A DNA stretch of 64,000 nt from Candidatus Nanohaloarchaea archaeon (lineage in GTDB: Archaea; Nanohalarchaeota; Nanosalinia; Nanosalinales; Nanosalinaceae), in contig JBEQBQ010000002.1 of NCBI GenBank assembly GCA_041639695.1, forward strand, positions 869-64,868, read 5' to 3'. This document shows, piece by piece, positions 35,531 through 42,991 of the stretch. Below the pieces are notes generated by a model. That model saw only the letters and a program-made list of their open reading frames with translations. It searched no databases and was not told the origin of the DNA. The translations under genes and the position numbers were made by a program. Each line of letters begins with the position of its first letter. Position 1 is the stretch's first letter.

Positions 35531-35863
35531 ATGGAGTCCAAAATTCTGATGACGCTACTGGGTATTTCTTTAGTAGCGGTAGCGGCTGCACCTGCCTCAG
35601 AGCCTAACCATCCGTTCTCTCAGATTTACCCGGTAGATGTTGACCTCAACATGTCAGAAAAGGATATCTTCAACGTTACAGAAGTCGATTTAGCTGGAGG
35701 CCTAATTTTCTCAGGTGACTGGATAAAGACTCCTGGTGGTGCTAGCCTTTTAGGCTGGAACTCTTCTTCAACAGAACTTGAATTGAATAATGGAAATCTG
35801 GACACAAATGGGAATAGTATAGTTTCCTCGGGTTCTGAGCTATGTCTAGGCGATGAATGCTAG
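35531..35863 (+). CDS. small Sec-signal secreted protein ending in a CxxxxC motif (module copy A)
   Basis: 110 aa. Signal peptide, HPFSQIYPVDVDLN, NGNLDTNGNSIVSS, C-terminal ELCLGDEC. Paralog of 36928..37266. Confidence 0.6.
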   Translation: MESKILMTLLGISLVAVAAAPASEPNHPFSQIYPVDVDLNMSEKDIFNVTEVDLAGGLIFSGDWIKTPGGASLLGWNSSSTELELNNGNLDTNGNSIVSSGSELCLGDEC

Positions 35864-35946: not shown

Positions 35947-36861
35947 TTAATCTAACGTGATTCTCACTGAATCTTCTATTATTCCGGAGTTACTGATTGT
36001 CAGGTCTCCACGTTCCCTGATATTTGAGTTATCGTTTCCAATTGTCAGATTAGGTCTATAAATTACTCTTACAAGCGGCATGCTCTGTAATGGTTCTCCG
36101 AAGCTCGGTTCAATCTGCTCGATTAAGACTCTTTCGTTGATTTCTTTCTGTCTTTTCTCAATCTCTGTCTGACCTCCATCAGAGAATGGTACTAAGAATG
36201 AAGATTGGCCTGCTGAAGTCATCGATACAGTATCAGAGGTAGGTCTAGAAAGTTTTAGGAAATCTCCGTAATTAACAATACCTAGAGGTTGCTCTGAAAC
36301 AATATACGGGAACTCGACAGGGGGATAGAGCTCTTCTCCGGTAGTTATCTCTTGTTGGCTTGCATATGTTGTCCCGGACACTCCATTCAACTCTAAGGTA
36401 ACGTTTTCCGGGCTTTTTGTCGTTAAACAGAGGCTCTTGTTGTATGGATCTGCGTTATAGCTTGGAGCAGCTGCGTGTGTGTTGGTCTTATCTGTTACGG
36501 ACAGAGTTTTCGTTCCGTTTACACAGCTATCTTTCACTGAGGCTCGTAAACTTCCTGAACATAGGCTGTAGCTGTACTGGTTCTCGAAAATACTGAGATG
36601 GGAGTTTGTCTTGTTAGCCATGGAGAAAAGGGTTTCGTCCCCTGAACTGCAGCTTAAACCAATTCCAAGGTTTTCAGCGTCATCCACACATACCTGATTG
36701 GGGTAATAACCGGGTTCTGCAACGTGACCTCCATCCGTTTTGTTGAGAGAGACTAAAGGCTCAGTTCCATCAGGACAGCTGGTTCCAACCGAAACATCTA
36801 CTGCTGTCACGCCTTGTGTGATTAAGATAAGGGCTCCAATTAGGAATATCTTTTTTCTCAC
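35947..36861 (-). CDS. Sec-signal secreted protein with three Cys/His repeats (module copy B)
   Basis: 304 aa, GTG start. MRKKIFLIGALILITQGVTA signal. Paralog of 34529..35440. Confidence 0.6.
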   Translation of the reverse strand: MRKKIFLIGALILITQGVTAVDVSVGTSCPDGTEPLVSLNKTDGGHVAEPGYYPNQVCVDDAENLGIGLSCSSGDETLFSMANKTNSHLSIFENQYSYSLCSGSLRASVKDSCVNGTKTLSVTDKTNTHAAAPSYNADPYNKSLCLTTKSPENVTLELNGVSGTTYASQQEITTGEELYPPVEFPYIVSEQPLGIVNYGDFLKLSRPTSDTVSMTSAGQSSFLVPFSDGGQTEIEKRQKEINERVLIEQIEPSFGEPLQSMPLVRVIYRPNLTIGNDNSNIRERGDLTISNSGIIEDSVRITLD

Positions 36862-36897
36862 GTCTAAAACTTGTTTAAACCCGAATATAAGATCAAC

Positions 36898-36904
36898 TTT
36901 AAAT
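36898..36904 (+). promoter_or_regulatory. TATA-box-like element for 36928..37266
   Basis: TTTAAAT centred about 27 nt upstream of the ATG; mirrors 35500..35507. Confidence 0.35.
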
Positions 36905-36927
36905 CCTGCGTTCTCTAAATTGCTGAT

Positions 36928-37266
36928 ATGAATAGCTGGAGAGCCGGAGGTATCGCCTTATTAGCCATATTTCTAGCTGCTCTAGCTACCGCTCCCACCG
37001 TACAACACCATCCGTTCTCACAGATTTTTCCGTCAGACCAGGATCTCAACTTTGGAGAATACGATGCGTTTAATATGACAGAAGTTAACCTGGCGAACGG
37101 AGCTATTTTCACAGGCAACGTGGTCAGAAACGCTGGAAGATCGATTGATATTATTAGATACCTAAATACTGGAAATGTAGAGATACCTAACGGCAATCTA
37201 GATCTGAAAGGCAACAACATTACTTCTTCATCTGGAGGTGAGATATGTGTCGGAGAATATTGTTGA
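36928..37266 (+). CDS. small Sec-signal secreted protein ending in a CxxxxC motif (module copy B)
   Basis: 112 aa. HPFSQIFPSDQDLN, NGNLDLKGNNITSS, C-terminal EICVGEYC. Confidence 0.6.
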   Translation: MNSWRAGGIALLAIFLAALATAPTVQHHPFSQIFPSDQDLNFGEYDAFNMTEVNLANGAIFTGNVVRNAGRSIDIIRYLNTGNVEIPNGNLDLKGNNITSSSGGEICVGEYC

Positions 37267-38155
37267 AATTGATAAAGAAGAATTAGAGGGACTGATTGAG
37301 AGTAAAGTTGAAGAAAGAGTAGAGGAGAGAGTACAGAAAGAGCTTGAGAAAGGAAAAAGTACTAAGAAAGAGTCCGAAAGCGGTATGTCGAGAAGAGGTT
37401 TTTTAAAGAAGCTTGGAGCTGGAGCAGTAGGTTTAGGCGCTCTTTCGCTGTCAGCCTCGGCATTAAACGTTAGAAGTGACGACCTGACATTCTACGGAGC
37501 TGATTCATCTCAGGAGTTAGAGGTGCTTGATGGAGGTCCTGTGAACATCAAAAACGCCAATTTGCAGTTAAATGGAAATAGTATTGAAGGGGTAGAATAT
37601 CTGAAGTTAAATAACATAGAGTTTGGAAGCTTGCCGACTGAGGAGTTCGTAATAGGTATAGATAACAGCGAGTCCCCGAAATATTATCATAATGGTTCTT
37701 GGAGGAAATTCTGGACCTCAAAAAACGATGGAGACGGAAGCGGGCTAAACGCTGACATGGTGGATGGCGAGGAACCGCCTTTTGGTCAGATGCCGTCGGG
37801 AGCTATTGTCATGTGGTCTGGCTCTATCTCGAACATTCCCTCAGGATGGGTTCTCTGTGACGGCAATAATGGCACGCCTGACCTCCGAGATCGTTTCGTG
37901 GTGGGTGCAGGCAACTCCTATAATGTTGGAAATACGGGAGGGGAAGCCTCACATAATCTTACGGAAAGCGAGATGCCTTCACATAATCATGGCATAAAGG
38001 AGGTAAGTAATGTTAACGATTCAAATATAGGGGAAGGATTTACGCACAACGACGGCGATACAAGCTATATCAATTTCTCGCAGGATGCTGGAGGCGATAG
38101 CGCTCACGAAAACCGACCGCCTTACCATGCGCTAGCCTATATTCAGAAGGTGTAA
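37247..38155 (+). CDS. coiled-coil-leader / twin-arginine-signal secreted protein with phage tail-collar-like C-terminal domain (family member 3)
   Basis: GTG 37247 gives MSENIVEIDKEELEGLIESKVEERVEERV, which aligns with member 4 (the ORF is open from 37238). RR at 49-50 (MSRRGFLKKLGAGAVGLGALSLSASA|L). GDGSGLNADMVDG. GAIVMWSGSISNIPSGWVLCDGNNGTPDLRDRFVVGAG...MPSHNH. Confidence 0.75.
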   Translation: MSENIVEIDKEELEGLIESKVEERVEERVQKELEKGKSTKKESESGMSRRGFLKKLGAGAVGLGALSLSASALNVRSDDLTFYGADSSQELEVLDGGPVNIKNANLQLNGNSIEGVEYLKLNNIEFGSLPTEEFVIGIDNSESPKYYHNGSWRKFWTSKNDGDGSGLNADMVDGEEPPFGQMPSGAIVMWSGSISNIPSGWVLCDGNNGTPDLRDRFVVGAGNSYNVGNTGGEASHNLTESEMPSHNHGIKEVSNVNDSNIGEGFTHNDGDTSYINFSQDAGGDSAHENRPPYHALAYIQKV

Positions 38156-38158
38156 ATT

Positions 38159-38578
38159 ATGACTCATAAATGCTCAAGATGTGGTGAAGAACTAGGCCGG
38201 GGGAAGGAAGTCAAAGATAAAGCTCGTTACATCGAATCTCACGACATGGAAACTGAGACTGAAAGAGAGCAGATTATTGCTTTAAGGCATACTGACAAGA
38301 CAAGGCAAATCCGGGACATATTGGTAGATGAGCAGGGTTTGAATGTTGTTCAGGCAAACAGAGTGATGGCAAGGAAAGACAAGTCCTATCTAGATAAGAT
38401 CGACAAGTCATTCACTGAATCGGATTTTAAGCAAGAAGAAGTCTCTAACCCGGTTTCTCCAGAGGAGGATCCAGAGGTCGTCCAAGTTGATACAAAACTG
38501 ATTACAGAAAAGGAGGCTGAGAAAGCTCTTGTATGTAAGCAAGAATGTGTTAAGGAGCAGGATGAAATCATATGGTAA
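38159..38578 (+). CDS. hypothetical protein with N-terminal CxxC
   Basis: 139-aa acidic ORF starting 4 nt after the previous stop; MTHKCSRCGEEL. Confidence 0.45.
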   Translation: MTHKCSRCGEELGRGKEVKDKARYIESHDMETETEREQIIALRHTDKTRQIRDILVDEQGLNVVQANRVMARKDKSYLDKIDKSFTESDFKQEEVSNPVSPEEDPEVVQVDTKLITEKEAEKALVCKQECVKEQDEIIW

Positions 38579-38692
38579 GTCGTGTTTTCTAAGGATATTG
38601 GGATATTTGCTGCATATGGAAGGTCTTGAAAGGATATCTCCAGTAAAAACGACAATTTTAAACCCCAGAAAACTAAATTTTTTCTATAATTA

Positions 38693-39549
38693 ATGTCGGG
38701 CAAAATTGAGGTAGATCCTGAAGAACTTGAAAAGTTGGTTGAACGTAAGGTTGAGGAAAGACTAAAAGAACGGCTTGAGCAGGAAACTGTCGAAAACAGT
38801 AAAAATTCTGAAGACGGGATTTCGAGGCGAGGATTTCTGAAGAAACTTGGTGCTGGCGCCATGGGTTTAGGCGCGGTAAGTTTTTCATCCGTTAGTGCCT
38901 TAACTTTGTCAAAGAACTCTATCAGAAATAATGGTCAGTCCATCTCTTCTGGAGGTCTATTTGATTTGAATAGCTACCTCTCGCGGTCCGGCGGTAATCT
39001 ATCTGGTCCACTAACACTTGGAGGGGACTTGAAAGCAAATGATGGCGAGTTGATTTGGGATGAGTCTAATTCCTTTGTACCGGCTTCCGTCTTAGAACAG
39101 TCTGGGATCGACCATGACAATCTGTCCAGTATTTCTGCTGATGATCATCATCCGGAGGTTTCTGCCGGAACGAATATTTCCGTTGATTCAAGTAACACGG
39201 TTGGTGTTTCTCCTCAGGGCCATACAAGCGTTTAAATGCGGATATGGTTGATGGAAATCATGCAGATGAGTTAAAGGGTATTACTGTATCTGATATTAAA
39301 CACGAGTCCGGAAGTACAGGTGTATCCGTTGGAGGAGGTTCCTACACTATCAACCTTTCGAATAATTATAGGACTCTTACCGGGTTGAGTACTGATATTC
39401 AGAACTCTAATTGGGATACAAACAACAATAATGCAGATGCTGCATGGATTAGTGATATTGATCTTTCAAACAACCAAGTAACTATCAGCTATACGAATGA
39501 TGAGAACAATACCGGTACTTTGTATTGGGATGTTTGGGGAATCGTATAA
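38693..39549 (+). pseudogene. coiled-coil-leader / twin-arginine-signal fibre-like gene split by a 1-nt frameshift (family member 4)
   Basis: ORFs 38693..39235 and 39244..39549 are in different frames. The second frame reads ...RLNADMVDG upstream of its ATG. Restoring one G at about 39229-39231 gives ...PQGHTSGLNADMVDGNHADEL, matching GSGLNADMVDG of member 3. Confidence 0.65.
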
Positions 39550-39637
39550 TGCCTTTTGAATTCTTGAGCCTATTAATAATCTGATTTCAGACTCATCCGG
39601 CATAAAGTATTTACATTAGAATATTGTATCTTCTACC

Positions 39638-39865
39638 ATGGGATTAATTGGTTTACAGGAAGCAGTTCTGATAGGTGCTGCAGCGATCGCTCTAATCATG
39701 GGTCCAAAGAAACTTCCACAGCTAGCACGTTCTCTAGGTGAATCAAAGAAAGAGTACAAGGAATCTATGAAGGAGGCTGAGGAGGCGGTTGATGAAGCGG
39801 CTCCTGATGTTGACGAGGAGATGGAGGAAGTAGAGAAAGAAGTAAAGGATGTAAAGGAAGAATAG
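39638..39865 (+). CDS. tatA: Sec-independent (Tat) translocase protein TatA/E
   Basis: 75 aa. MGLIGLQEAVLIGAAAIALIMGPKKLPQLARSLGES followed by an acidic tail. Confidence 0.85.
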   Translation: MGLIGLQEAVLIGAAAIALIMGPKKLPQLARSLGESKKEYKESMKEAEEAVDEAAPDVDEEMEEVEKEVKDVKEE

Positions 39866-39873
39866 GATAAGTT

Positions 39874-40560
39874 ATGCAGACCCTACAGGATCACGTCAGG
39901 GAACTCCGGAAACGATTAAAGGTTGCAGGAGCTTTCTTTCTTCTAGCTGTCGGAGTATGTTTCTATTTTTCCTCCCAAGTTCTTAACTGGCTTCAATCAG
40001 ATCTAGGCTTCGCACTACACGCTTTAACAGCTTATGAAGTACTTTACACGGAGTTAATGATTGCTTTCCTTGGAGGATTTCTATTCAGTCTTCCAATAGT
40101 TCTATATGAAATAATTGCGTTTATGCGTCCGGGTTTAAAGGAGAAAGAGTATCTAGTGATGAGAAATTATTTGCCGTTCTCGGTAATACTTTTCGTAGGT
40201 GGGGCTGTGTTTGCATACAGTTACATAGTCAAAGCCAGTCTCGCGTTCTTCAACTCGACAACCGAATCTGCGAACGTCGCCGCGGTCTGGGGCCTCCAGA
40301 ACACGGTAGGTTTCGCCTTAAGGATCTCAGCTTTCACCGGCATAATATTCCAACTTCCCATCGTCTCGGTACTCCTAGCTAGGGCAGGGCTCCTGAACGT
40401 TGATATGATGAAAAGATACAGGTCGTACTTCATAGTGTCGATTCTCGTAATCTCAGCTTTGGCAACACCGCCAGACCTTATATCTCAGGCACTGGTAACT
40501 GGACCCGTTATCGGTCTTTATCAGATCAGTATTTTACTGGTGTCTCGGTTCGAGGACTAA
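39874..40560 (+). CDS. tatC: Tat translocase protein TatC
   Basis: 228 aa. HVRELRKRL N-terminus and six predicted TM helices; immediately downstream of tatA. Confidence 0.85.
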   Translation: MQTLQDHVRELRKRLKVAGAFFLLAVGVCFYFSSQVLNWLQSDLGFALHALTAYEVLYTELMIAFLGGFLFSLPIVLYEIIAFMRPGLKEKEYLVMRNYLPFSVILFVGGAVFAYSYIVKASLAFFNSTTESANVAAVWGLQNTVGFALRISAFTGIIFQLPIVSVLLARAGLLNVDMMKRYRSYFIVSILVISALATPPDLISQALVTGPVIGLYQISILLVSRFED

Positions 40561-41425: not shown

Positions 41426-42152
41426 ATGACGGGCGATGTTAAAGAGGTCAAAAAAGAGAAAAAATCCTCTGAAATTGGCCGACGTTCTTTCCTTAGGAAA
41501 TTAGGAGCTGGTGCTATAGGTATTGGGATCTTTTCACTCCCTTCAGTGTCTGCTCTGGATATTAAAAGTAGTACGGGCCTTGAGGTCTTCAGCGGTAACA
41601 AGAAATACCTGGATGTAGAGTCCGGAGGGCCTGTAAGCGTCAATAATACAGGACTCAACGTTAGTGGAGGTCTGGATGTGGGGGTCAGGAAAGTTTTACA
41701 CTGATCTGGGTATATTGTCTGATGTTTTTCTGGCTGCGGATAGCGCATGGTTTACAGCGAACGCGAAGGATGTCTCTGGAAGCGGAGGAGTAAAAATGCA
41801 GGATGGTGGAACGACTAAAATGGCTGTGGAATGGTCTAACGGTTATCAGTACGGAAGAATAACGGATGAAGGTGCCGGAGAGGACTGGATGGTTTTCAAT
41901 CCTGGTGGTCCTGTAGATGTAAAACGTAGTCTGAACGTGAACGGCAACAAGGTCTGGCACGCCGGAAACGACGGTTCCGGAAGCGGTTTGGTGGCCAACA
42001 AAGTTACAGGGACGAACGGTGGCAATAGGTTAGGAGGCCAGATGCCTGTTTATCAGACTAAGACCGATGCCCAAAACGACTCAGATGTCGTCGAGGGAAC
42101 TATAGTGTACGTAAAAGAGGATAACACTTTCTACTACGAGGACGGTACGTGA
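41426..42152 (+). pseudogene. twin-arginine-signal fibre-like gene split at a G5 tract (family member 6)
   Basis: ORFs 41426..41704 and 41664..42152. EIGRRSFLRKLGAGAIGIGIFSLPSVSA|L. Removing one G from GGGGG (41680-41684) gives ...GGLDVGSGKFYTDLGILSD... in one frame. Confidence 0.65.
41680..41684 (+). repeat. G5 homopolymer at the frameshift of member 6
   Basis: gatgtGGGGGtcagg read directly. Confidence 0.8.
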
Positions 42153-42991
42153 TGGCTTTAGTACCGATAGGAGGTGGTTCGGACAAGGCCCTGGGTTTCG
42201 ATAATCCTTACGGTGATGGAAGCGACGGTTCACTCACATGGGGCTCCAACTCCACGAAAGGAGGCATTTTCCAGACAACAGATCTTACCATAACGTCAGG
42301 CACCACGATTACAATCAGTTCCTCTAATACGGTATTAGTGGTTATGGCGCAGAACAGTATTACTGTTGAAGCAAATGTTACTATAAATGGTTCAGGCGCG
42401 GGAGGTGCCGGGGGTAGCGGCGGAAACGGAGACTCAAACAGAGATTATAGAATGGGTAATCCTGGTGAGGACGGTATGATAACAGGGCCCGGAGCGGCGG
42501 GAGGTGGTGCTTACGATACTGCATCTGGTGGTTTATCAGTTCCATCAAGTTTGAAAGCACCAACAATATACGGCACAGCTATGGAGATAGCGACCCAGAG
42601 TTCCCTTGATGTCTCTGCCGGGGGTACAGGTGGGAGCGGTAGCTACTACTACGCAAATGGCGGGAACGGCGGTTCAGGTGGAGGAGGTCTTATACTGATC
42701 GCTCCGGACATATCAGTAGACTCCTCTATGTCTATTGACCTTTCAGGGACGGATGGTCAGAAAGGTGATAATGGATCTGACTATGATGGTGATAACGGTG
42801 CTGGCGGTGGAGGCGGCGGTGCTGGAGGGGTTTTCCTTGCCTTAGGGCAGAACGTAAACGCAGATCTCTCGAATGTAGATATTTCGGGGGGTGCTGGAGG
42901 TGCCGGAGGGACGGGCGGAGGCTACAACTCTCCAGGAGATCCTGGTGAGGACGGTGTTAATGGGATCAAGGCAGTTCGGAGTCTGAATTAG
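42149..42991 (+). CDS. glycine-rich beta-helix-like protein, translationally coupled to member 6
   Basis: 280 aa. Start overlaps the upstream stop (GTGATGG). ...LTITSGTTITISSSNTVLVV...ITVEANVTINGSGAGGAGGSGGNG..., repeated GGxGG blocks. Confidence 0.6.
   Translation: MMALVPIGGGSDKALGFDNPYGDGSDGSLTWGSNSTKGGIFQTTDLTITSGTTITISSSNTVLVVMAQNSITVEANVTINGSGAGGAGGSGGNGDSNRDYRMGNPGEDGMITGPGAAGGGAYDTASGGLSVPSSLKAPTIYGTAMEIATQSSLDVSAGGTGGSGSYYYANGGNGGSGGGGLILIAPDISVDSSMSIDLSGTDGQKGDNGSDYDGDNGAGGGGGGAGGVFLALGQNVNADLSNVDISGGAGGAGGTGGGYNSPGDPGEDGVNGIKAVRSLN

What the first reader, a model, noticed from the sequence alone, without database searches (positions are those of the whole stretch)
37784..38155. Phage tail-collar-type receptor-binding domain on a Tat-exported archaeal protein
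The C-terminus of member 3 reads GQMPSGAIVMWSGSISNIPSGWVLCDGNNGTPDLRDRFVVGAGNSYNVGNTGGEASHNLTESEMPSHNHG. This matches the hallmark of the phage tail-collar domain family: G-x-I-x-x-[WF]-x-G...P-x-GW-x-x-CDG ... PDLR-[GD]-RF ... GG...H-x-L-x-x-x-[EQ]-MP-x-H-x-H. No capsid, portal, terminase or integrase gene is nearby, so it appears to be a cellular, domesticated fibre head.
Basis: partly seen in the sequence, partly recalled or inferred. Interest (0 to 1): 0.62.

Follow-up and report, generated by a model that had tools for sequence, protein, structure and literature searches.

The report
Virus tail-fibre tip on nanohaloarchaeal surface protein
A tiny salt-lake symbiotic archaeon carries an intact cellular gene that joins an export signal for folded proteins to the receptor-binding tip of a virus tail fibre, together with a previously undescribed helper gene, which makes it a testable candidate for how such cells grip their hosts.

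Summary
Residues 183-305 of ORF 37238-38155 (likely start 37247) are a tail-fibre "collar plus head" tip. Support: PHROG tail-fibre families at E 4e-29, and solved tail fibres 9NXK, 9QGO and 6OV6 at E about 1e-16 by profile. Pfam PF07484 scores just below its threshold (20.7 against 24 bits).

The protein has a canonical twin-arginine signal (TIGR01409 above its cut-off). tatA and tatC lie 1.5 kb downstream. The chromosome is cellular and nanohaloarchaeal, with no viral hallmark gene.

New here:
- Viral homology starts earlier, at the linker W-x-S-x-NDG-x-GSGL[ND]AD-x-VDG (nt 37712).
- The next gene (38159-38578) belongs to an undescribed four-cysteine family. In 11 of 11 intact other loci it lies directly after a collar head, mostly in viral tail modules.
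- Its nearest relatives lie on contigs whose only annotated relatives are tailed viruses of Halorubrum and Haloarcula.
- A sister strain has, at the same locus, the same N-terminal module with a different head and a different downstream gene.

So this is a swappable, virus-derived head-plus-partner cassette on a Tat-targeted surface fibre. It is probably an adhesin, but the function is inferred. Cellular collar-domain proteins are common, so this is a new variant of a known kind.

The parts
37234..37241 (+). Shine-Dalgarno-like GGAGGTGA, 5 nt upstream of the in-frame GTG at 37247
   Evidence: Read directly. The database copy of the protein (P0001, 302 aa) starts at 37247.
37247..38155 (+). Fibre gene ('member 3'), 302 aa. 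The longest ORF starts at GTG 37238 (305 aa), and residue numbers in this report use the 305-aa frame.
   Evidence: It is intact, and it is a singleton at 90% identity.
37274..37357 (+). Long charged helix (residues 13-40, EELEGLIESKVEERVEERVQKELEK) that lies in front of the twin-arginine motif
   Evidence: AlphaFold2 helix 13-40 with block pLDDT 85-93. Comparable 40-60-residue charged leaders occur in all architecture-sharing relatives: P0009, P0012, P0015, P0023, P0033, P0062, P0080, P0154.
37388..37462 (+). Twin-arginine signal: S51-RRGFLKK, a Gly/Ala-rich h-region, and ASA75 with predicted cleavage before L76
   Evidence: TIGR01409 scores 20.7 bits against a cut-off of 16.7. The motif scan finds 7 such signals in 64 kb, all in this family.
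37463..37711 (+). Short shaft shared with the paralogues (N-module). It is poorly modelled as a monomer.
   Evidence: tblastn finds the N-module at 7 places in the window. pLDDT is below 50.
37712..37768 (+). Linker W159-TSKNDGDGSGLNADMVDG177, the point where homology with viral fibres begins and the likely recombination joint
   Evidence: Viral-contig matches begin at residues 165-166, and P0016 aligns from residue 158. In sister-strain locus L115 the same motif GSGSGLDADTIDG precedes a different head.
37784..38152 (+). Tail-fibre collar/head (receptor-binding tip) domain, residues 183-305
   Evidence: Model pLDDT is mostly 80-93.
37982..37990 (+). H249-N-H251 'HxH' motif, the predicted metal site on the three-fold axis
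   Evidence: H249 and H251 are invariant in 83 homologues. The motif aligns with the HxH of 9NXK (AHTH). HxH pairs bind Fe2+ in T4 and JUB59 (6OV6) fibres according to PMC9509320.
38159..38578 (+). Partner gene: a 139-aa acidic protein with no signal peptide. It has invariant C5, C8, C126 and C130 and ends in DEIIW. It is a candidate assembly factor or tip partner of the head.
   Evidence: The family has 86 database proteins with no Pfam, PHROG or PDB sequence match. It lies directly downstream of a collar head in 11 other loci. The AlphaFold2 model has pLDDT 93.1 and no significant PDB fold match.
39638..39865 (+). tatA
   Evidence: PF02416 E 1.4e-11. NCBIfam TatA models match at about 1e-11, all below their cut-offs.
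39874..40560 (+). tatC
   Evidence: PF00902 E 3e-54. TIGR00945 scores 166.7 bits against a cut-off of 132.7.

Best explanation
Gene 37247-38155 is a cellular gene of a nanohaloarchaeon (a DPANN ectosymbiont of haloarchaea) for a short surface fibre. In order it has:
- a charged helix;
- a canonical twin-arginine signal;
- a short shaft shared with six paralogues;
- a conserved linker (W-x-S-x-NDG-x-GSGL[ND]AD-x-VDG);
- the collar/head receptor-binding tip of tailed-virus tail fibres, with an invariant HxH metal motif.

The head came as a two-gene cassette with the next gene (38159-38578). That gene encodes a four-cysteine protein without a signal peptide, from an undescribed family that always follows collar heads in viral tail modules. 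Its closest relatives lie on contigs whose only annotated relatives are tailed viruses of Halorubrum and Haloarcula. In a sister strain the same N-module at the same locus carries another head and another downstream gene. Heads are therefore exchanged at the linker, as in phage host-range modules.

Shown:
- domain identity;
- the Tat signal and the neighbouring tatA/tatC;
- the cellular context;
- the linkage of head and partner;
- the cassette replacement;
- the affinity of the partner to halovirus-related contigs.

Inferred:
- The chains fold, bind metal and trimerise in the high-salt cytoplasm, possibly with the partner's help.
- The folded fibre is exported by TatAC. The partner either stays behind or hitch-hikes.
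- The signal is cleaved at ASA|L.
- The displayed tip binds a surface glycan or protein of a haloarchaeal host cell, that is, it serves as an adhesin and host-recognition device.
For: - Head identity: PHROG tail-fibre families at 4e-29, 1e-21 and 4e-21. PDB tail fibres match by single sequence and by profile. Foldseek finds 6OV6 and 9NXK at about 5e-5 and BFVD 'tail collar' proteins down to 8e-11. 337 phage records match, annotated as tail fibre or tail collar.
- Tat: TIGR01409 is above its cut-off in this protein and five paralogues. All 7 RR signals in the window belong to the family. tatA and tatC are adjacent.
- Cellular context and organism.
- Synteny: proteins of the same architecture lie beside tatA-tatC in L107-L109 and in a Ca. 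Nanohalobium MAG, L018.
- Partner linkage: 5 loci found through the head and 6 of 6 loci found through the partner alone have a collar head ending no more than about 40 nt before the partner. Several of these lie beside a tape measure or Baseplate_J gene.
- Halovirus affinity: in the partner tree the window groups with L051 and L106 at 98/83 support. The neighbour gene in L051 matches only Halorubrum and Haloarcula tailed viruses. The upstream gene in L106 is a homologue of HRTV-25 gp34, which sits in the tail-fibre slot.
- Cassette swap: L115 has flanks 80-93% identical in nucleotides and an N-module 57% identical in protein, but a different head and partner.
- Assembly: the junction is confirmed by an independent assembly.
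Against: - There are no expression, localisation or binding data. Only DNA metagenome runs hold the sequence.
- Strict Pfam membership fails.
- The head tree is an unresolved polytomy. Identity to dozens of proteins from many phyla is 55-63%, so the donor of the head itself is not established.
- The halovirus affinity rests on the partner gene. Its branches are long, and the shared acidic composition could attract them.
- Most collar heads, including the nanohaloarchaeal P0012 and P0015, lack the partner, so it is not a general folding requirement.
- Four of the seven paralogues appear as split ORFs, so the family may be partly dispensable.
- The monomer model superposes poorly on solved trimers, with TM 0.15-0.2.
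- Reva et al. 2023 judged Tat probably inactive in two cultivated nanohaloarchaea (PMC10266531).
Confidence: 0.6

Rival explanations
1. The protein is a secreted or surface lectin-like protein with a role other than host recognition. Examples are binding polysaccharide substrates, the cell's own S-layer or pili, or a role like the functionally obscure bacterial COG4675 (MdpB/RhiB/MrpB) proteins.
For: The domain is extremely common in cellular genomes of many phyla. Homologues at 54-62% identity are labelled 'microcystin-dependent protein'. The gene lies among archaeal type IV pilin operons, so it could decorate or cooperate with pili.
Against: The cassette swap between sister strains and the fast-evolving N-module (57% protein identity against 80-93% nucleotide identity in the flanks) fit a partner-recognition surface under diversifying pressure better than a housekeeping lectin. 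The partner gene's relatives are in viral tail modules.
Confidence: 0.2
2. The gene is a recently acquired, dispensable passenger on its way to decay, with no maintained function.
For: The homologous head in the Ca. Nanohalobium MAG is truncated after about 35 residues and fused to the last residues of the partner. The protein is a singleton at 90% identity.
Against: The ORF, its Tat signal, the invariant residues of the head (22 of 22 invariant columns kept) and the four cysteines of the partner are all intact. The same architecture is kept in at least eight other proteins from separate samples.
Confidence: 0.1
3. The protein is a shed receptor-blocking decoy. The symbiont would release a copy of a halovirus receptor-binding tip that occupies the virus receptor on its host and so protects the host (and itself) from infection.
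For: The signal has a plausible signal-peptidase site (ASA|L) and no obvious anchor. The partner gene's closest relatives lie on halovirus-related contigs.
Against: This is purely speculative. No precedent was found in the literature searches. A 7-member family with varied heads suits attachment as well.
Confidence: 0.06
4. The region is a remnant of a provirus, or part of a tailocin or contractile injection system, not a cellular surface protein.
For: The head and partner are of viral tail-module type.
Against: No capsid, portal, terminase, sheath, tube, baseplate or integrase gene was found between 12.6 and 64 kb. The neighbours are GatD/E, RNase J, GluRS, thermosome, PCNA and tatAC. The fibre carries a Tat signal shared by six paralogues spread over 24 kb. 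The locus is syntenic in other nanohaloarchaea.
Confidence: 0.04

Closest known systems
Receptor-binding tips of tailed-virus tail fibres with a collar/head fold: T4 gp12/gp10 type, Bizionia JUB59 prophage RBP 'C24' (PDB 6OV6), Pseudomonas phage Pa223 fibre (9NXK), tail fibre 9QGO
   Same: The C-terminal 120-150 residues are homologous, including the G-x-I-x-x-W-x-G...GW-x-L-CDG...PDLR-x-RF core, the HxH motif and the C-terminal ENRPPY-x-ALAYI strand. A conserved linker precedes the head. A small gene follows the fibre gene, as fibre chaperone genes do in phages.
   Different: It is not in a virion gene module. The N-terminus is a Tat signal with a charged leader, not a baseplate-attachment domain. 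The shaft is very short. The downstream partner is unrelated to any chaperone in Pfam, PHROGs or the PDB.
Cellular 'microcystin-dependent protein' / COG4675 family (MdpB; RhiB of Rhizobium, MrpB of Microcystis), which are phage-free tail-collar proteins of bacteria
   Same: The domain is the same and the genomic context is cellular and non-viral. Many homologues at 54-62% identity carry this name. The function is likewise untested.
   Different: Those proteins are mostly small bacterial ones, often tandem paralogues without a signal or with Sec signals. This one is archaeal and Tat-targeted, belongs to a family with interchangeable heads, and is paired with the four-cysteine partner. Membership in COG4675 itself could not be tested because that profile is not on hand.
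Surface proteins proposed for host interaction in cultivated nanohaloarchaea (Reva et al. 2023, PMC10266531): LamG/PKD proteins, a trimeric-autotransporter-like adhesin, and SVXNc_0798 with an R-pyocin knob domain, close in gene number to tatC SVXNc_0793
   Same: The lineage is the same, and the idea of borrowed adhesion or tail-fibre-type domains on symbiont surface proteins is the same. By locus-tag numbering, tatC there also sits close to surface-protein genes.
   Different: The domain differs (collar/head, not pyocin knob). Here both tatA and tatC are present with seven RR-signal substrates around them, whereas that paper judged Tat probably inactive. Head-plus-partner cassette exchange is not described there.
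Phage tail-fibre plus cognate chaperone host-range cassettes exchanged between unrelated phages (e.g. Alteromonas phages, PMC10579305; Pam3 fibre and chaperone, PMC9608196)
   Same: The head and the adjacent small gene travel together and are replaced together at a conserved joint.
   Different: Here the recipient is a cellular gene family, not another phage. Chaperone activity of the partner is not shown. I took only the titles and abstracts of these two papers.

Membership tests
Pfam PF07484 Phage Tail Collar domain | Score at or above the gathering threshold (24 bits) | tested here: not met
   The score is 20.7 bits, E 4.2e-4, covering only profile positions 1-24 of 57. 46 of 83 close homologues match at E<=1e-3, best 1.3e-5. 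This subfamily sits at the edge of the model.
Pfam PF21939 Gp10_C (baseplate Gp10 C-terminal/head domain) | Score at or above the gathering threshold (27 bits) | tested here: not met
   The score is 19.5 bits, E 0.002, residues 219-296 on profile positions 36-130 of 139.
Tail-fibre collar/head superfamily (PHROG tail-fibre families; solved fibres 9NXK, 9QGO, 6OV6) | Significant sequence and profile homology over the whole tip domain | tested here: met
   phrog_8469 3.9e-29, phrog_1800 1.1e-21 (residues 183-304 on profile 388-544 of 545), phrog_5795 4.3e-21. The profile against PDB gives 3e-17, 3e-16 and 7e-16.
Tail-fibre collar/head superfamily | HxH motif that coordinates a metal on the trimer axis | tested here: met
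   H249-N-H251 is invariant in 83 homologues and aligns to the HxH of 9NXK. The role of HxH in T4 and JUB59 fibres is taken from PMC9509320. Actual metal binding could not be tested.
Tail-fibre collar/head superfamily | Intertwined homotrimer | not testable with these tools
   Only monomer AlphaFold2 was available. The head has pLDDT 80-93 but TM 0.15-0.2 to chains of solved trimers.
Tailed-virus tail fibre (as a virion component) | Encoded within a tail or baseplate gene module of a virus or provirus | tested here: not met
   The neighbourhood is cellular and no viral hallmark was found from 12.6 to 64 kb.
Twin-arginine (Tat) substrate | S/T-R-R-x-F-L-K motif plus h-region; TIGR01409 above its cut-off | tested here: met
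   The motif is SRRGFLKK. TIGR01409 scores 20.7 bits against a cut-off of 16.7. Pfam PF10518 gave no hit at E<=0.1.
Twin-arginine (Tat) substrate | A Tat translocase in the same genome, and actual Tat-dependent export | tested here: inconclusive
   tatA and tatC are present 1.5 kb downstream. Export itself cannot be tested in silico.
COG4675 / MdpB 'microcystin-dependent protein' | Match to the COG/arCOG profile | not testable with these tools
   The profile is not on hand. The only evidence is JGI's name on homologues of 54-62% identity.
Phage fibre plus chaperone cassette | A small gene immediately downstream that co-occurs with the head type | tested here: met
   In 11 of 11 intact other loci the partner lies directly after a collar head, including 6 of 6 loci retrieved through the partner alone. 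L018 holds only a remnant.
Phage fibre plus chaperone cassette | The partner is required for folding or trimerisation of the fibre | not testable with these tools
   There is no similarity to known chaperones. Most collar heads lack this partner.

The most novel reading that the evidence does not exclude
Nanohaloarchaea recognise their haloarchaeal hosts with receptor-binding tips captured from the tailed viruses of those same hosts. The tips are captured as head-plus-partner cassettes, plugged onto a constant Tat-leader/shaft module at a conserved linker, folded in the cytoplasm and exported by a Tat system kept largely for this purpose. Swapping the cassette would change the symbiont's host range in the way a phage changes its own. 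The four-cysteine partner would be a new class of fibre assembly factor or tip protein with a fold not seen in the PDB.
Probability: 0.3. Interest if true: 0.8.

Novelty: new variant of a known kind. Interest (0 to 1): 0.58.

Why it matters
How DPANN archaea find and hold their hosts is an open question. Published candidates in nanohaloarchaea are giant 'SPEARE' proteins and LamG/PKD proteins (PMC10266531).

This locus offers something small and tractable:
- a 30-kDa fibre with a well-understood viral fold;
- an obvious export route;
- a natural experiment in a sister strain, which has the same scaffold with a different head.

It also gives the patchily retained Tat system of nanohaloarchaea a plausible set of substrates. 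It defines an uncharacterised viral and cellular protein family (the four-cysteine partner) that is strictly linked to collar-type fibre heads and is predicted with high confidence to have a fold without a PDB match. If the head binds haloarchaeal envelopes, it would show a symbiont re-using its host's virus's receptor-binding device.

Tried and rejected
2. A phylogeny of the head (279 rows with FastTree, 77 rows with IQ-TREE) is an unresolved polytomy. Nanohaloarchaeal heads are neither monophyletic nor clearly separate, and identity is flat at 55-63% to dozens of proteins. No donor can be named from the head.
3. No halovirus appeared among the 40 best-listed of 337 annotated phage records that match the head. 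The best was a Methanosarcinales virus at 43%.
4. The monomer AlphaFold2 model of the full protein has a confident head and N-helix but a disordered shaft, and TM scores to trimer chains are low. No multimer prediction was available.
5. The partner as a single sequence found nothing in the phage records, in IMG/VR or in the 5.8-billion-protein index. The six-sequence alignment was too divergent for the locus scan. The alignment search found 86 proteins.
6. The partner has no match in Pfam, PHROGs or PDB sequences, and none by PDB Foldseek.
7. Provirus and tailocin readings are rejected on context.
8. Assembly chimera is rejected.
9. The alternative start at M50, just before RR, is rejected. 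The charged leader is conserved in relatives that have no Met there.
11. No RNA runs hold the sequence.
12. Literature searches for tail-collar or tail-fibre proteins in Nanohaloarchaeota or DPANN found no description of this.
Full report
**Observation.** ORF 37238-38155(+) encodes 305 aa. A GGAGGTGA element lies 5 nt before the in-frame GTG at 37247, and the public copy of the protein (302 aa) starts there. An independent assembly of the same sequencing run spans 36500-39700 without a single difference, so the gene is not a chimera of the deposited contig.

**Domain identity.**
- The C-terminal 123 residues match PHROG tail-fibre families strongly. phrog_8469 gives E 3.9e-29. phrog_1800 'tail collar fiber protein' gives E 1.1e-21, end to end with the profile's C-terminus. 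phrog_5795 gives 4.3e-21.
- The single sequence finds solved tail fibres: 9QGO at 1.9e-10 and 6OV6 at 1.7e-8.
- A profile of 83 homologues finds 9NXK, 9QGO and 6OV6 at 3e-17 to 7e-16 over the whole domain.
- 6OV6 is the receptor-binding protein of a temperate phage of Bizionia JUB59 (PMC9509320).
- The AlphaFold2 model is confident in the head (pLDDT mostly 80-93). Foldseek returns 6OV6 and 9NXK at about 5e-5 and BFVD 'phage tail collar domain' proteins down to 8e-11. TM scores are low, as expected when one chain of an intertwined trimer is modelled alone.
- Pfam's own models fall short of their thresholds: PF07484 scores 20.7 against 24 bits and PF21939 scores 19.5 against 27 bits. Of the 83 homologues, 46 touch PF07484 only weakly. 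Strict Pfam membership is therefore not met, but superfamily membership is secure.
- The domain is very common: 25,974 50%-identity clusters at E<=1e-3, 337 annotated phage records, and many cellular genomes of diverse phyla.
- Invariant residues include H249 and H251, an HxH motif that aligns with the HxH of 9NXK. Such pairs bind Fe2+ on the fibre axis in T4 and JUB59 (PMC9509320).

**Anatomy of the rest of the protein.**
- Residues 13-40 form a confidently predicted charged helix.
- Residues 51-75 are a textbook twin-arginine signal, SRRGFLKK-LGAGAVGLGALSLSASA, followed by L76. TIGR01409 is above its curated cut-off.
- The charged leader is unusual in lying in front of the RR motif. It is conserved in kind in eight architecture-sharing proteins from other samples, most of which have no Met next to RR, so it is translated.
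- Homology with viral fibres begins at W159-TSKNDGDGSGLNADMVDG177, not at residue 183. Viral contigs align from residues 165-166 and P0016 aligns from residue 158.

**Context.**
- The window is a cellular archaeal chromosome. It holds GatD and GatE, RNase J, GluRS, pyrophosphatase, thermosome, PCNA, primase, Lhr and XPB helicases, a PilB-type ATPase with two PilC-like proteins, and pilins.
- None of the 46 proteins scanned with Pfam, mostly ORFs of at least 150 aa between 12.6 and 64 kb, matches a capsid, portal, terminase, sheath, baseplate or integrase family.
- GluRS clusters at >=90% identity with a protein named 'Nanohaloarchaea archaeon'. The DNA comes from a hypersaline lake metagenome.
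- tatA (39638-39865) and tatC (39874-40560) lie 1.5 kb downstream.
- The N-terminal module recurs at seven places between 21.9 and 45.5 kb, while the head occurs once. A motif scan finds exactly seven RR signals in the window, all in this family.

**The partner gene.**
- The next gene (38159-38578, 139 aa, acidic, no hydrophobic segment) has a homologue directly downstream of the closest head relative, P0016 (33% identity, E 3e-22).
- Searching all fetched loci showed the same arrangement in IMG/VR contigs L051, L053 and L070 and in a Dehalococcoidales MAG.
- An alignment search found 86 proteins, all unnamed and without a Pfam domain.
- Six loci were retrieved through the partner alone. In all six a collar head is encoded by the gene that ends just before the partner. 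Some lie beside tape-measure or Baseplate_J genes, integrases or viral-type polymerases.
- The family has four invariant cysteines (C5, C8, C126, C130) and a C-terminal D-x-x-I-W.
- It has no match in Pfam, PHROGs or PDB sequences.
- AlphaFold2 models it at pLDDT 93.1, and Foldseek finds nothing significant in the PDB (best E 1.7).
- It is therefore an undescribed family tied to collar-type fibre heads. It is a candidate assembly factor or tip partner.
- Most collar heads lack it, including the nanohaloarchaeal P0012 and P0015.

**Origin.**
- The head tree is unresolved and identities are flat.
- The partner is more informative. The window's copy groups with L051 and L106 at 98/83 support, inside a 99/99 clade of six. 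The branches are long and all three proteins are acidic, which calls for caution.
- L051 is a 47-kb IMG/VR contig of 63% G+C. Its neighbouring 661-aa protein matches only Halorubrum and Haloarcula tailed viruses.
- The upstream gene in L106 is a homologue of HRTV-25 gp34, which follows baseplate J and the gpI-like protein, that is, the tail-fibre slot.
- A Halorubrum lipolyticum head (P0096) lies in an integrase-flanked block of small co-oriented genes. It groups with the nanohaloarchaeal heads P0015 and P0062 at 97/89.
- The G+C of the head is 48.9%, against 42.5% for the N-module and 44.6% for the window. The partner is 42.1%, so composition is not decisive.

**Conservation and exchange.**
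- In three ENA contigs a protein of the same architecture (P0015) lies immediately after tatA-tatC and before pyrophosphatase.
- A Ca. Nanohalobium MAG has two family members upstream of tatA and tatC. One has a collar head cut off after about 35 residues and probably joined to the last residues of the partner (...CKDCVKDSDEVIW; partner profile E 4e-4 only).
- In a sister MAG (GCA_014297435.1) the flanking genes are 80-93% identical in DNA. The orthologous position there holds a 396-aa protein whose first 111 residues are 57% identical to this one. After its own GSGSGLDADTIDG linker it carries an unrelated head, followed by an unrelated 143-aa gene.
- Head and partner have therefore been replaced together on a constant module.

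**Mechanism.**
- Shown: the domain, the signal, the neighbouring translocase, the cellular setting, the linkage of head and partner, and their joint replacement.
- Inferred, first step: the fibre folds, binds metal and trimerises in the cytoplasm, as it does in a virus-infected cell. The partner may help, and the charged N-helix may bring the chains into register.
- Inferred, second step: the folded fibre is exported by TatAC. Tat is the route that accepts folded, oligomeric, cofactor-bearing proteins. That general property comes from established knowledge of Tat; its use here is my inference.
- Inferred, third step: the displayed tip binds a surface structure of a partner cell.
- Given the obligate association of nanohaloarchaea with haloarchaea (PMC10266531, PMC9765267) and the halovirus affinity of the cassette, a host-recognition adhesin is the best-supported function. 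I put it at under one half on its own. I put the whole explanation (identity plus mechanism in outline) at about 0.6.

**Comparison and novelty.**
- Cellular collar-domain proteins are well known by annotation (COG4675 'microcystin-dependent protein'), and secreted versions exist in bacteria.
- Reva et al. 2023 already noted a pyocin-knob domain on a nanohaloarchaeal surface protein. They judged Tat likely inactive in two cultivated species.
- Literature searches found no description of Tat-leader collar fibres, of the cassette exchange or of the partner family.
- Earlier notes of this scan report similar themes in other genomes. They are leads only.
- I class this as a new variant of a known kind.

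Noticed in passing
window 37274-37357 and the equivalent segments of the six paralogues: A 40-60-residue, highly charged, confidently helical segment lies in front of the twin-arginine motif and is conserved across the family and its relatives in other samples. Ordinary Tat n-regions are much shorter. Its role is unexplained; it could be trimerisation in the cytoplasm, chaperone docking or export proofreading. TIGR04519 (extended Tat variant) hits weakly and below its cut-off.
   Followed up: partly
L115 2041-4239 (GCA_014297435.1, sister strain) against window 36928-38578: At the orthologous locus the sister strain has a 396-aa family member with a different head and a different 143-aa downstream gene. 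Neither has a PHROG match. The small upstream 'HPFSQ...' protein is 194 aa there, against 112 aa here. Phosphodiesterase and PAPS-reductase genes lie upstream of tatA in the sister strain, and blastn aligns nothing from the window to that part of L115.
   Followed up: partly
window 35531-35863, 36928-37266; L115 2041-2625; L107 527-3055: The small secreted proteins next to the fibre gene end in a C-x-G-x-[YE]-C motif (LCLGDEC, ICVGEYC, ICVGRYC). They share the 'NGNLDLKGNNI' type repeat with the fibre shaft. An 842-aa YadA-head-like protein upstream of tatA-tatC in a relative ends the same way (CIGQYCG). They may be short forms of a second fibre type.
   Followed up: no
window 42149-42991: A Gly-rich 280-aa protein is start/stop-coupled to the second piece of member 6. 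It matches the viral family phrog_13336 of unknown function (E 2.4e-8). It may be a second virus-derived partner for a different head.
   Followed up: no
L018 1560-2115 (Ca. Nanohalobium sp. MAG): The collar head is truncated after '...GWVLCDGNNSTPNLQ'. The adjacent frame ends in '...CKDCVKDSDEVIW', which is probably the C-terminus of the partner family (profile E 4e-4). This suggests an internal deletion through head and partner. Two small minus-strand ORFs, unscanned and read by eye as a possible toxin-antitoxin pair, then lie before tatA.
   Followed up: partly
L116 (Halorubrum lipolyticum AOJG01000041.1, 127634-148347): The haloarchaeal collar-head protein P0096 lies in a run of about 30 small co-oriented genes without Pfam hits, bounded by two integrase genes. 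This looks like a provirus or integrated element. Its head groups with the nanohaloarchaeal heads P0015 and P0062 (97/89).
   Followed up: partly
window 39638-40560 and the seven RR-signal genes (21939-45552): All seven twin-arginine signals detected in 64 kb belong to the fibre family that surrounds tatA-tatC. A published analysis considered Tat probably inactive in two cultivated nanohaloarchaea (PMC10266531). The translocase may be retained mainly for these fibres.
   Followed up: partly
L112 4534-6498: One viral-type contig (Baseplate_J, Hjc, family B polymerase) carries three tandem collar-head genes followed by one partner gene. IMG/VR contig L070 likewise has three head matches before one partner.
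   Followed up: no
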